A DNA stretch of 64,000 nt from Eledone cirrhosa (taxonomy: Eukaryota): assembly GCA_964016885.1 (NCBI GenBank), contig OZ024740.1, positions 65,782,001 to 65,846,000 of the forward strand, written 5' to 3'. Position numbers and translations under genes: made by a program. The notes beneath the pieces were generated by a model. The model was given only the letters and a program-made list of their open reading frames with translations. It was not told where the DNA came from and searched no databases. This document shows positions 12,952-29,201 of this stretch, one piece after another (positions within the stretch are counted from its first letter, which is position 1; each line of letters starts with the position of its first letter).

Positions 12952-13105
12952 TTAATAATAATAAATGTGATGAAGACTAAAACCCGAAGAGGGCCCGATA
13001 AGGATAATATGTATAACATTATATAAAACCGTAGAGCAAATATTTATTAAAATAACAGATTAAAGTTTAAGCAAAGAATCGCTACTTTCACCCTGTTATT
13101 TTAAT
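12952..13105 (-). mobile_element. Hairpin-plus-tail mini-element (family F2)
   Basis: Homologous to 25045-25269 and 25970-26100. Short fold-back ATTAAAATAACAG...CTGTTATTTTAAT ends at TA repeats. Confidence 0.7.
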
Positions 13106-13176
13106 ATATATCTATATCTATCTATCTATCTAATTATATATATATATATATATATATATATATATATATATATATA

Positions 13177-13367
13177 GGAACGAGTAGGACCCCGACGGCT
13201 GAGCTCAAGCCGTTTCGACGGCTAATTCTGGACTAGATTTAGCCGTCGAAACGGCTTGAGCTCAGCCGTCGGGGTCCTACTCGTTCCTATTACCCACTCT
13301 ACTGCCCTAAGTATTGAGTACTTTGGTGCGTTATGGTCCACTTGGTTCCTTACCACATTTCCTTCGT
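13177..13367 (+). mobile_element. Hairpin-plus-tail mini-element (family F1)
   Basis: Near-perfect hairpin with ~49-bp arms at 13177-13287, an 80-nt tail, and (TA)n flanks. Confidence 0.88.
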
Positions 13368-13403
13368 TATATATATATATATATATATATATATATATAT
13401 ATA

Positions 13404-13590
13404 GGAACGAGTAGGACCCCGACGGCTGAGCTCAAGCTGTTTCGATGGCTAATTCTGGGAATTGGCCGTCGAAACGGCTTGAGCTCAGCCGTCGGGGTCC
13501 TACTCGTTCCTATTACCCACTCTACTACCCTAAGTATTGAGTGCTTTGGTGCGTTATGGTCCACCTGGTTCCTTACCACCTTTCTTTCGT
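13404..13590 (+). mobile_element. Hairpin-plus-tail mini-element (family F1)
   Basis: Adjacent copy separated only by (TA)n, with a different loop and a few substitutions. Confidence 0.88.
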
Positions 13591-25044: not shown

Positions 25045-25269
25045 GTAATAATAATAAATGTGAAGACTAAAATACAAAGAGGGCTCGATAAGGATAAATA
25101 AATATCAAATATATAAGAAGCATACAGCAAATATTTATTAATATAACAGATTAAATTTTAAGCAAAGTGAACGCAGTTTAAATATTTCGAAAAACGATGC
25201 AACCGAAACATTTTTCGAAATATTTATTTGTGCCTTCACTTTGCTTAACATTTAATCTGTTATTTTAAT
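25045..25269 (-). mobile_element. Hairpin-plus-tail mini-element (family F2)
   Basis: Imperfect hairpin with ~60-bp arms at 25137-25269 plus a 90-nt tail, between (TA)n tracts. Same termini as the PLE at 25970-29201. Confidence 0.78.
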
Positions 25270-25969
25270 ATATATATATATATGATCTATTATATTGTCG
25301 GATACATAGACGTGTCTCTATACGCATACACATGCATGCATAGACGAGTGAATACATACACACACGCGCGCGCTCGCGCGCTCGTTCCTACGTTTATTTA
25401 AAGAAGCGTTCGAAAAGCACATCAAGTATGAATATATAACCACTACGTCTGTATGTGTATATGACAGTAACTATATTCCCACAATGTATATTTAGGAAGG
25501 AACATGTCTCTCTCTCTCTCTCTCTCTCTCTCTCTCTCTCTCTCTCTCTCTCTCTCTCTCTCTCTCTCTCTTTACATATATATATATATATATATATATA
25601 TATATATATATATATATATAGAGAGAGAGAGAGAGAGAGAGAGAGAGCGAGAGAGAGAGAGGTAGAACACTGGTAGAAGTGGTAACACAACAGTTACATC
25701 ACAATAGCGAGAACAATCACCAGTACGAGCTGATGATCCGCTAAGATGAAACAATTGTTCTTGGTATGGTGAACTAACTATATTTTTTTTTCTTCCTAAT
25801 AATCGTCTCTTTCTCCCTGTTTTCATATATATATACACACATATATATATATATATATATATATATATATATATATATATATATATATATATATATATAT
25901 ATATATATATATATATGTAAGCCATCGCCGTATTTTGACTAAAGAAATTAAAGAAATTATATATATATA

Positions 25970-28900
25970 CATTTGAAGACTAAAATCCAAAGAGGGCTCC
26001 ATAAGGATAAATATATATCAAATATATAAGAACCGTAGAGCAAATATTTATTAAAATAACAGATCAAACTTTAAGCAAAGAATCACTGCTTTCTCCTTTA
26101 ACGGAATCTTCTAAAACTAACAAAATCAATCTGTGAACGCAGAAGTAAATATTTCGAAAAACGTTGCAATCGAAGGAAGACAGGAAGACGATATTTTGGT
26201 TCGTGGAAACGTTCCCTGGCAAAGGACGGAAAAAAACGAAGATAATACGTCACTATATGGAGCAGTGAAAACCATTACACGCAAAGATAAAACCACGTTT
26301 ATGGTATAAATGAAGTCGTAGAGACGTGGAGACCTTCTCTGGCAATGAACGGAAAAAACGAAGATAATACGTCAATATGTGTGTCGTTGAGAATAATTAC
26401 ACGCAAAGACAAAGCCCCACGTTTATGGTATAACTGAAGTCCTACACTAAATTCTATTAAGGAAACCGAATGATTCTCGGCTTCAGAGTTAAGAATAATG
26501 TAAATAAATTACAGAGGTAATTGAAATCAACAAAAATTAAATATATACATGCTTGCATCCATATACGTACATACACATGCTTTCTGATCTCAACATCCTG
26601 GACATGACTGAACCTCTGGACCCTATTTCTCCCCACTTTAAACTGAAGGATCACAAATCTAATTTCCCGAACAACCCCTCTATTCGGATTATTAACCCTA
26701 CGAAATCCGATTTAGGTAGACTTAGTAAAAGGATTTTAGATAGAATTATACCTGAAATTAGAAGTTGGGCCCCTCTTGCAATGTGGAACAATTCTTTCGC
26801 AGTGATTGATTGGTTCAACAGCATATGCAACAAGGAACATTGCCGTTTTATCCAATTCGACATCAATAATTACTACTCCTCCATCACTTTACCACTTCTT
26901 CTTAGAGCTATCAATTTCGCAGTGCTTAAGGATTTCGAAGTTGATGTCATCCTCAATGCCCATAAATCGGTGATTAATTTCGACGACTATATTTGGATTA
27001 AAAAAACTAATACTACTCCATTGGACGTGAGTATAGGCGCCAGCGATACTGTAGAGATTACTGATCTTATCGGCTTTTTCCTTCTTTTCTCTATCAAGGA
27101 GGAATACCCCAACGTGGGCGGTAGTTTGTACCGTGATGACCGTCTTTTGACCATGACAAAGTGCGGCCCACGTGCTTGCGATAGGTTCAGAAAAGAACTC
27201 ACAGCCTTCTTTAAAGGCTTTAACCTCTCCATACATGTTGAGGCCAATCTCGGTCTTTAATTACCTCAACGTTACCCTCAATTTGTCGAATGGCTTGCAC
27301 TACCCGTATAGAAAGCTAAATGGTACGCTTAATTACATAAGTAAGTATTCTAACCATCCTGCAAACATAACCAAGAACCTGGTAAGAAACGTTTCTTTGA
27401 GACTTTCCCGTCTAAAAACAAACGAGCATATTTTTGTCGACCATTCCACATATTACAATGAAGCACTTGCTCGGAGTGGATTTGTCGATAAGGTAGCATA
27501 TACAGAGTATGAGAATAGACCTAGGATAAATAGATCCCGACGCATTATATGGTATAACCCACCATATAATATGAAGGTGGTCACATCATTAGCTAAGATC
27601 TTTCACTCCTTTATTATGAAGCCTTTCCCCCAGCACATAAATATAGTAACATTTTTAATAGAAATACCATTAAAATTTCTTACTTTACGACTCCTAACCT
27701 TGCACATAACATCACAACTTCAAATTTAGCTATATTACCTAGCCGTAGGAACACGTCGTGCAACCCTGTACCTAGTACTAACTAATTGTAGGAATCGAGT
27801 TGACTGCCCCCTATCCGGGAAATACCTCTCTAGTAACATTGTCTACAAACGTAAGTTTGAAACACCCACGTCCCATAGACCTTACATAGGGTTAACCGCC
27901 AATAGATTCAAGCAGCGTCTTTACATGCATACCATTCTTTTGTTAACTCTTTAAGAAAGATTATGACGTCACTTTCAGCTTATATCTGGAGTCTAAAAGA
28001 CAACCACACCCAATATAAGTTATACTGGGAGATCCTAGCGAGGGATAGATCGTATAACGGAAATAAAAGACCATGTGACCTCTGCGCCGCTGAAGCCCTG
28101 GAAATACTTTAAGCCAAGACCACATCTTAAACAAAAAATATGAGGCAATTTCGGCTTGTAAACATAAATTGCACAAAACTTTCCTGTATTACAGCCCCAC
28201 ACATTATACCCTAACGGATAGTACGAACTATACGCGGATATTTTACCTCTTGATATGGTAACTAAGTAGATGTTATGTTTATACCATTACTTATTTGTAT
28301 AGGTAAGTATATATTACCTGTATGTTTTGTGAAGGTACTTATGCTTTCTCGTACGCATATGTGCTTGTATATGTTATAGGCGTATATATTATATTATATA
28401 TACTGGTACATGTGCATATGGTTGTGTGTATACGTGTGTTTTGCGTCTGTGTGAGTATGCGCGTTCGTACGTATGTAGGGTGTGTGTATATATGTACTGT
28501 GTGTTTTGGTTGACGTAGTTTAGTAGCAAACATATGTGTATTTACATGTAGGTATCTGTGTGCGCGCGTTTTATACGTATTTATGTGTGTATATTTATAT
28601 ACGTTTATATAATTATATGTATAGACGCACACACACACATATACATTTTTTTTTTAATATATTTTTATGTGTATTTGATGTATACGTTCCTATGTGTGCG
28701 GGTACAGGCGCTGTGTGGTTTATGTATGTGCGTGCGTGTTTTTTGTGTACGTGCTTGTATTTGCATACCCATGGCGGGTGTTTTCGTGATTGCATGTGTA
28801 TGTACGTATATGGATGCAAGCATGTATATATTTAATTTTTGTTGATTTCAATTACCTCTGTAATTTATTTACATTATTCTTAACTCTGAAGCCGAGAATC

Positions 28901-29201
28901 ATTCGGTTTCCTAAATAGAATTTTAGTGTACGACTTCAGTTATACCATAAACGTGGTTTTGTCTTTGCGCGTAATTGTGCTCACGCACCAAATAATGACG
29001 TATTATTTTCGTTTTTTTCCGTTCTTTGCCAGGGAACGTTTCCACGAACCACAGTATCGTCTTCATGTCCTCCTTCGGTTGCAACGTTTTTCGAAATATT
29101 TACTTCTGCGTTCACAGATTGAATTTTTAGTTTCAGAAGATCCCGTTAAGGATGAAAGCAGCGATTTTTTGCTTAAACTTTGTCTGTTATTTTAATAAAT
29201 A
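25970..29201 (+). mobile_element. 5'-truncated decayed Naiad-type PLE with long terminal inverted arms (family F2 parent)
   Basis: RT pieces at 26553-27260 (IRIINPTKSDLG, FIQFDINNYY, LYRDD) and 27172-27729. GIY-YIG remnant about 27784-28190 (NCR..CPLSG...NIVY, YIG, CDLC). Arms about 26045-26560 vs 28810-29201. Confidence 0.9.
29129..29179 (+). ncRNA. Hammerhead-like motif with CAGAAGA core
   Basis: AGUUU-CAGAAGA-UCC(CGUUAA)GGAU-GAAA-GCA...UGC-UU/AAACU. The mirror arm reads UAGAAGA. Confidence 0.5.

What the first reader, a model, noticed from the sequence alone, without database searches (positions are those of the whole stretch)
12952..29201. Family F2 shows a size series from coding PLE to 150-bp hairpin with nearly identical end-points
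Seen: the 3.2-kb RT/GIY-YIG element (25970-29201), a 225-bp copy (25045-25269) and a 155-bp copy (12952-13105) share the same tail (GAAGACTAAAA..CAAAGAGGG..CGATAAGG). All end their fold-back at or within a few bases of CTGTTATTTTAAT next to TA. This directly links the hairpin-plus-tail minis to an autonomous Naiad-type PLE and supports the same origin for F1.
Basis: seen in the sequence. Interest (0 to 1): 0.7.

Follow-up and report, generated by a model that had tools for sequence, protein, structure and literature searches.

The report
Twin-primed stubs of Hydra-type Penelope retrotransposon
The three repeats are cut-short, dead copies of one abundant jumping gene of the Penelope-like kind (Hydra group, not Naiad), and its copies across the genome share two fixed ends and an extra G at one frequent stopping point, which suggests the enzyme likely copies a capped RNA from both broken DNA strands at once, an unsettled step in how these elements move.

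Summary
Observation confirmed: the three copies share tail and ends. Corrections: the 3.2-kb copy is truncated and broken, not autonomous; its endonuclease is C-terminal, so it is Hydra-clade, not Naiad; the 154-bp copy has only a 13-bp stem.

Genome-wide, F2 has at least 16,365 tails and intact 709-codon ORFs. Copies end at two fixed sites about 90 nt apart. In 25 of 43 two-armed copies the arms do not overlap (twin-priming geometry), and both arms come from one source lineage. Arms stop in excess at -60..-75 (25 of 86, about 3 expected). Arms ending at -68, an initiator-like site, carry an untemplated G (50 of 80 junctions; 14 of 21 versus 47 of 208 elsewhere), as a reverse-transcribed cap would leave.

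Best reading: minis are one-off insertions copied from two internal start sites of a sense, capped RNA, many running off its 5' end. One window copy fits fold-back copying better. No RNA data tested this.

The architecture is published; searches found no report of the cap signature. The scan noted double priming and twin hairpins before on other DNA of this genome.

The parts
12952..13094 (-). 154-bp copy: tailed arm, element positions about +94 to -48 (tail 12952-13045)
   Evidence: 90% to intact copy L062
13093..13105 (+). 154-bp copy: 13-nt short arm ending at the short end; 2-nt microhomology at the inversion joint
   Evidence: read directly
25045..25207 (-). 225-bp copy: tailed arm +92 to about -140, lacking 53 nt (about -31 to -83) that hold the hammerhead-like core and the initiator-like site; tail 25045-25136
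25208..25269 (+). 225-bp copy: short arm from about -131 to 0 with the same 53-nt deletion, which the genome search found only in this copy
25970..26580 (-). 3.2-kb copy: inverted tailed arm (about +80 to -536), tail 25970-26049, 3' UTR with two 120-nt repeats
26577..28207 (+). 3.2-kb copy: 5'-truncated, broken ORF remnant (codons about 158-706 of 709): RT, then CxCX5C linker and GIY-YIG endonuclease (about 27790-28200)
   Evidence: tblastn; frames
28208..29201 (+). 3.2-kb copy: 3' UTR and tail-less short end (+5)
29127..29133 (+). initiator-like TTAGTT; the A at 29129 is element position -68, the inferred capped 5' end of the RNA and first base of hammerhead stem I (mirror position 26118 on the - strand)
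   Evidence: sequence; stop excess and extra G; function inferred
29129..29179 (+). hammerhead-like motif with non-canonical core (CAGAAGA ... GAAA)
   Evidence: no Rfam hammerhead hit; fold not better than shuffles
29194..29199 (+). AATAAA overlapping the short end; possible poly(A) signal
   Evidence: sequence; 96% conserved; function untested

Best explanation
F2 is a high-copy Hydra-clade Penelope-like retrotransposon whose copies end at two fixed sites about 90 nt apart, and the small copies are likely one-off insertions made when both cut strands of a (TA)n target prime reverse transcription at these two sites on one sense RNA that is likely capped at position -68. Shown: family, intact ORFs, two end sites, (TA)n targets, head-to-head arms from one source lineage, excess of stops at -60..-75, extra G at -68. 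Inferred: the primer at +92 often halts at or before the primer sitting at 0/+5, giving a non-overlapping inversion; when it passes, both cDNAs copy the same stretch and give a hairpin; near the RNA's 5' end both run off at the cap; the two cDNA 3' ends are then joined through short homologies. The modal ~230-bp hairpin is 160 + 70 nt, the two distances from start sites to the 5' end.
For: Ends: 85 of 89 terminal tails end at +91..+94 (sample = 93 of the first 100 listed matches); 102 of 112 tail-less ends at +1, +5 or +6 (all loci held); contigs of run X1 show loose (AT)n ends at the same places (may be the assembly's own sample). Geometry: 44 of 93 tailed arms stop between +50 and -20; 25 of 43 complete two-armed copies have arms that overlap by 12 nt or less; short arms can hold sequence absent from the long arm (window 3.2-kb copy, L207, L243, L260). 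One source: 97 of 134 minor alleles at common sites are shared by both arms in 98 pairs (72%; shuffled mean 13%, maximum 47%), also 58 of 86 when arms lie >300 nt apart. Stop: 25 of 86 arms reaching -60 stop within 16 nt, 3.3-4.4 expected; 1,541 palindrome centres lie there genome-wide. Extra G: hand count of the first 100 of 2,209 matches, 20 continuing variants set aside, 50 of 80 junctions; one base further, 4 of 51 junctions among the first 100 of 822; in held loci 14 of 21 at -68 against 47 of 208 elsewhere, p=6e-5. Centre base of identical palindromic joints is T in 6, A in 4 of 10, as independent annealing would give. In vitro precedent: both strands nicked and extended, two internal start sites make the tail (PMC11167929).
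Against: No RNA data: the cap and start site are inferred from DNA scars. The 225-bp window copy has a genome-unique deletion in both arms, easier to explain by one arm copying the other. Among 18 overlapping copies the short arm lies inside the long arm's span more often than it extends beyond (about 9 versus 3, the rest tied). Only 1 of 20 long-frame loci begins near -68 and several begin hundreds of bases upstream, so many templates extend past -68. The -69 control is partly made of -68 ends fused to an A; 4 of 11 target-joined arms elsewhere also show a G. The held loci include loci picked for short arms or palindromic centres. Arm limits come from automatic BLAST chains and some complex loci may be misparsed.
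Confidence: 0.65

Rival explanations
1. One cDNA is primed at +92, folds back, copies itself, and the hairpin is resolved at the short end, for example by the endonuclease (the self-priming and EN-resolution ideas in PMC3846280 and PMC8557442).
For: Shared unique deletion in both arms of the 225-bp copy; joints with 3-nt loops and templated insertions; short arm often contained in long arm; shared lineage alleles fit too.
Against: Cannot make the 25 of 43 non-overlapping inversions or copies whose short arm is longer, such as the 3.2-kb copy; 1-nt-centre palindromes with either centre base fit annealing of two ends better. Probably true for a subset only.
Confidence: 0.17
2. Twin priming is right, but the stop near -68 is a pause at the hammerhead-like fold or a bound protein, and the G is an untemplated addition, not a cap.
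For: Stops spread over -60..-70 and a second cluster at -42..-55; many templates extend upstream of -68; -68 is also the edge of stem I.
Against: G excess is confined to -68 (5 of 68 at neighbouring positions); the site matches an initiator-like motif; the fold is not more stable than shuffles. F1 arms also pile up at a similar TTAGT site, with a weaker G signal (3 of 9 in the main class).
Confidence: 0.12
3. The minis are a self-propagating non-autonomous family (MITE-like or retrozyme-like) mobilised by F2 protein.
For: Some joints recur many times; a size mode near 230 bp.
Against: Neither window mini has a junction twin in its 40 best hits; lengths of 43 complete copies run from 85 to 3,546 nt; recurring joints have mixed centre bases; no tandem monomers seen.
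Confidence: 0.04
4. Minis are full-length inverted elements that lost their middle after insertion.
For: Long inverted repeats are deletion-prone (general knowledge); the window copies are older (87-93% to intact copies).
Against: Does not predict an untemplated G at one position, nor tailed arms that stop at the short-end site.
Confidence: 0.02

Closest known systems
Hydra clade of C-terminal EN+ Penelope-like elements (Craig et al. 2021, PMC8557442)
   Same: Single ORF, RT then GIY-YIG; RWK-like, DKT, CxCX5C, CxxC and CxH motifs; no CCHH; (TA)n targets; 5'-truncated inverted copy and one-sided tail. P0004, 44% identical to F2 over 96%, reads by eye as nearly the same protein as Hydra-2_Amil in the supplement.
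   Different: Tail 87-92 nt against the 30-40 bp quoted for PLEs; unit about 3.2 kb; hammerhead core non-canonical; protein differs from Hydra-1_Obim (by eye).
Poseidon_Ac in vitro (Frangieh et al. 2024, PMC11167929)
   Same: Two internal RT start sites define the tail; both target strands are cut and extended; hammerhead cleavage not needed.
   Different: There the sites lie in the ORF and are not homologous to the target; in F2 they lie in the 5' UTR and each end sits in 3-4 nt of TA-type sequence. No cap run-off or inversion joining was described in the parts read.
Adineta vaga Penelope elements (Arkhipova et al. 2013, PMC3846280)
   Same: Head-to-head inverted pLTRs, palindromes at the joint, initiator-like motif in the pLTR, optional tail.
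   Different: That paper reads the palindromes as self-priming on an antisense template, while not excluding a sense one; the F2 data point to a sense, capped template and two primers.
L1 twin priming and extra 5' G of full-length retrocopies (recalled, no call)
   Same: Non-overlapping 5' inversions joined by microhomology; untemplated G at the RNA start.
   Different: L1 primes first at poly(A) and second at variable sites; F2 uses two fixed internal sites and often copies one stretch twice.
Naiad PLEs (PMC8557442)
   Same: (TA)n targets, tail, inverted copy.
   Different: Naiads have an N-terminal endonuclease with CCHH; F2 does not.
Animal non-LTR retrozymes (bioRxiv 10.64898/2026.07.22.740005)
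   Same: Derived from PLE terminal sequence with a hammerhead.
   Different: Tandem head-to-tail monomers; F2 minis are single head-to-head insertions.

Membership tests
Hydra-clade PLE | Single ORF with RT and C-terminal GIY-YIG | tested here: met
   709-aa ORF, endonuclease motifs in the last 150 aa; Pfam gave no family
Hydra-clade PLE | RWK and DKT motifs | tested here: met
   RLRWRAF (RWR variant) and SDKTG in L051; aligned to RWK/DKT of relatives
Hydra-clade PLE | CxCX5C linker, CxxC and CxH around E and N, no CCHH | tested here: met
   CNCRNRADC, CDLC, CKH
Hydra-clade PLE | Insertion into (TA)n | tested here: met
   most flanks; left flank of the 154-bp copy has only a short TA
Hydra-clade PLE | Canonical hammerhead in the pLTR | tested here: inconclusive
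   All three stems can be drawn but the core reads CAGAAGA and 10.1/11.1 is U-U; no Rfam hit; no excess of arms at the predicted cut (2 of 358 at -22/-23)
Hydra-clade PLE | Placement in the Hydra branch of an RT tree | not tested
   No tree built; assignment rests on motifs and on likeness to a supplement sequence read by eye
Naiad PLE | N-terminal GIY-YIG endonuclease | tested here: not met
   Endonuclease is C-terminal
Naiad PLE | DKA motif and CCHH in the endonuclease | tested here: not met
   DKT, no CCHH
EN+ PLE insertion structure | Partial tandems, inverted 5'-truncated copy, one-sided tail | tested here: met
   tail is 87-92 nt
Non-LTR retrozyme | Tandem monomers with an active hammerhead | tested here: not met
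   No tandem mini monomers in the loci parsed; activity not testable here

The most novel reading that the evidence does not exclude
Penelope-like elements use a retrovirus-like strong-stop step. The RNA runs from a cap at -68 to a poly(A) site just after the AATAAA at the short end, so it carries a short terminal redundancy. Both primers start 70 and 160 nt from the cap, run to it, and must jump to the 3' repeat to copy the ORF. That would explain pLTRs, tails on ORF-bearing 3' ends (8 of 19) and identical rare variants in 5' and 3' repeats (8 in 10 loci); minis are strong-stop DNAs that never jumped. Not supported: linkage across -68 is kept and no continuing arm carried the extra base (0 of 20).
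Probability: 0.25. Interest if true: 0.8.

Novelty: new variant of a known kind. Interest (0 to 1): 0.5.

Why it matters
The size series itself is ordinary PLE debris. What matters is that thousands of F2 copies record the insertion intermediate. The papers read leave open whether head-to-head palindromes come from an antisense or a sense template and how inverted structures form. The extra G at one start site and the non-overlapping inversions give base-precise predictions that CAGE and the existing in vitro PLE assay can test, and intact F2 ORFs are available for it. It also means these hairpin minis should be annotated as truncated PLE insertions, not MITEs.

Tried and rejected
Rfam scan of the window: only microsatellite-driven hits below threshold, no hammerhead. 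Pfam: no family for the intact ORF. Tail-only DNA search returned nothing; the tool skips very common words, so a pattern count was used. Sequencing runs: no RNA holder listed; contigs cannot show starts. Hammerhead-cut ends as templates: no excess at -22. Loss of linkage across -68 as a sign of jumps between RNAs: not seen, r2 up to 0.61. F1 tail read-through pattern: 19 of 20 loci ran into (TA)n, no leader found; the partner came from other loci. Folding of the hammerhead region and of the two GCTC..GAGC stems: drawn in most folds but none better than shuffles. Density from blocks: about 8 terminal hits in one 200-kb block and 0 in another, too uneven for a copy estimate. Literature searches without a relevant hit: hammerhead + Penelope-like + U4A, six-term hairpin/tail search, pLTR/hairpin search, Penelope + twin priming (three unrelated listings), Penelope + extra G + cap, extra guanine + cap. 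No structure or complex prediction was run.

Full report
Coordinates. Element positions are on the sense strand of the ORF, 0 = last T of CTGTTATTTTAAT. The window is G000:C1:65782001-65846000 of a 3.0-Gb genome.

1. Observation. The three copies are there and align at 85-90% over tail plus arm. In each, a tailed arm lies on the - strand and a tail-less arm on the + strand, head to head. The 154-bp copy has a tailed arm to -48 and a 13-nt short arm joined through 2 shared bases. The 225-bp copy has arms to about -140 and -131; both lack the same 53 nt. The 3.2-kb copy has a 610-nt tailed arm and a 2.6-kb short arm with an ORF remnant from about codon 158, broken by stops and frameshifts. The 225-bp and 3.2-kb copies share variants absent from intact copy L053, so they probably belong to one older subfamily.

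2. Family. A protein search gave 29,134 candidates, 150 scored, 15 with a 713-aa open frame. Of 20 long-frame loci fetched, 17 have an uninterrupted 712-714-aa frame. The unit is: 40-nt leader, 709 codons, about 1 kb of 3' UTR, hammerhead-like motif, short end, tail, then the leader of the next unit. The tail is therefore 5' UTR sequence. The endonuclease is C-terminal and the motifs match the Hydra definition in PMC8557442 (section 11 read; alignment). The search found 97 relatives at 33-56%. Naiad membership fails. The hammerhead core is non-canonical and no tree was built.

3. Two fixed ends. A 27-nt tail core occurs 16,365 times, control 0. I parsed 93 of the first 100 listed matches (7 not fetched). 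Four are internal tandem tails; 85 of the other 89 end at +91..+94. Among all held loci, 102 of 112 tail-less ends lie at +1, +5 or +6. Each end sits in 3-4 nt of TA-type sequence, while longer TA runs inside the tail are seldom used. A GCTC..GAGC stem follows each end by a few bases (lead from earlier notes), but its folding energy is not above shuffles.

4. Geometry. Of 93 tailed arms, 44 stop between +50 and -20, at or before the short-end site. Of 43 complete two-armed copies (85-3,546 nt), 25 overlap by 12 nt or less and 18 are true hairpins. Non-overlapping arms, and short arms longer than the tailed arm, need two RNA-templated cDNAs. In 98 head-to-head pairs both arms share 72% of common minor alleles against 13% in shuffles, while 337 of 369 rare variants are in one arm only: one source, little later homogenisation.

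5. The stop at -68. Of 86 arms reaching -60, 25 stop within 16 nt; 3.3-4.4 are expected from flanking rates. Genome-wide, 1,541 palindrome centres lie there. The commonest joint uses a near-palindrome at -65..-59 with either centre base (6 T, 4 A of 10). For arms ending at -68 I counted by hand the first 100 of 2,209 matches: 20 continuing variants, and of 80 junctions 50 have an extra sense G, 21 A, 9 C. One base further: 822 matches, first 100 give 49 continuing or unclear and 4 G of 51 junctions (Fisher p=1e-10). This control is partly made of -68 ends fused to target, so I added a second: 14 of 21 at -68, 5 of 68 nearby, 47 of 208 elsewhere. Position -68 is the A of TTAGTT, initiator-like (consensus recalled), and the first base of hammerhead stem I. 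An untemplated G at an RNA start is the recalled mark of a copied cap. F1 arms pile up at a similar site.

6. Against. No RNA run was listed. The 225-bp copy's deletion is unique in the genome yet in both arms, which favours fold-back or later repair for that copy. Only 1 of 20 long-frame loci begins near -68, so longer templates or jumps exist. Some counts use loci chosen for short arms.

7. Mechanism. Shown: ends, targets, geometry, shared source, stop excess, extra G. Inferred: endonuclease cuts both strands of (TA)n; each 3' end primes at one of the two sites on a sense RNA; the trailing polymerase stalls at, or displaces, the leading one; near the 5' end both run off at the cap; ends are joined by microhomology. 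Confidence 0.65; family assignment about 0.95.

8. F1. L149 and L061 hold a broken Hydra-type ORF (51% to F2) followed by a 3' UTR 74-77% like the window's long F1 arm and an end 93-95% like the window's F1 minis. No intact F1 ORF was looked for further.

9. What is known. PMC8557442 (passages, section 11, supplement search hits): tail, inverted copy, Hydra clade. PMC11167929 (parts 1-2 of 4): two internal start sites, both strands extended. PMC3846280 (passages): palindromic joints read as antisense self-priming. PMC4209133 (parts 1-2 of 4): minimal hammerheads, including pairs on opposite strands 100-700 bp apart. bioRxiv 10.64898/2026.07.22.740005 (listing and passages; supplements not seen). 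L1 twin priming and cap G are recalled. The searches found no report of a cap signature or twin priming in PLEs; subscription papers such as the 2005-2008 Penelope papers are outside the library, and unseen supplementary figures of PMC11167929 may bear on this. Earlier scan notes describe twin hairpins and double priming in retrozyme-like elements; a word search for the cap signature found none.

10. Verdict. The added junction evidence makes an open mechanistic question testable. Interest 0.5; new variant of a known kind.

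Noticed in passing
window 7432-8978, 13178-13370, 13403-13590: Family F1: same hairpin-plus-tail design, tail about 80 nt, a more degenerate hammerhead-like end, arms stopping near a TTAGTC site; a related subfamily lies near 14450-14700.
   Followed up: partly
window 4933-7236 (-) and 37571-39922 (+): Two further broken Hydra-type ORFs, 35-52% identical to F2.
   Followed up: partly
window 29222-30447, 15080-16453, 41382-42618, 61379-62199: Other long inverted-arm elements; the first has an unpaired stretch of about 80 nt at one end and abuts the F2 copy across a TA run.
   Followed up: no
window 20521-22401 (-): Broken LINE remnant with endonuclease-like and RT-like frames.
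   Followed up: no
window 51575-54451 (-): Ty3/Gypsy-like frames (protease, RT, RNase H, integrase motifs) in three pieces.
   Followed up: no
L066 (G000:C4:65635300-65645299): [quoted passage not shown]
   Followed up: no
L246, L304, L071, L096, L102: Different PLE families often sit back to back in the same (TA)n run, so insertions cluster.
   Followed up: no
L216, L244, L261, L262: Tail-only insertions (+92 to about 0) with (TA)n-type sequence behind them.
   Followed up: partly
run X4: Contig depth is far more concentrated on -68..+92 than in run X1; the kind of run is not on record.
   Followed up: no
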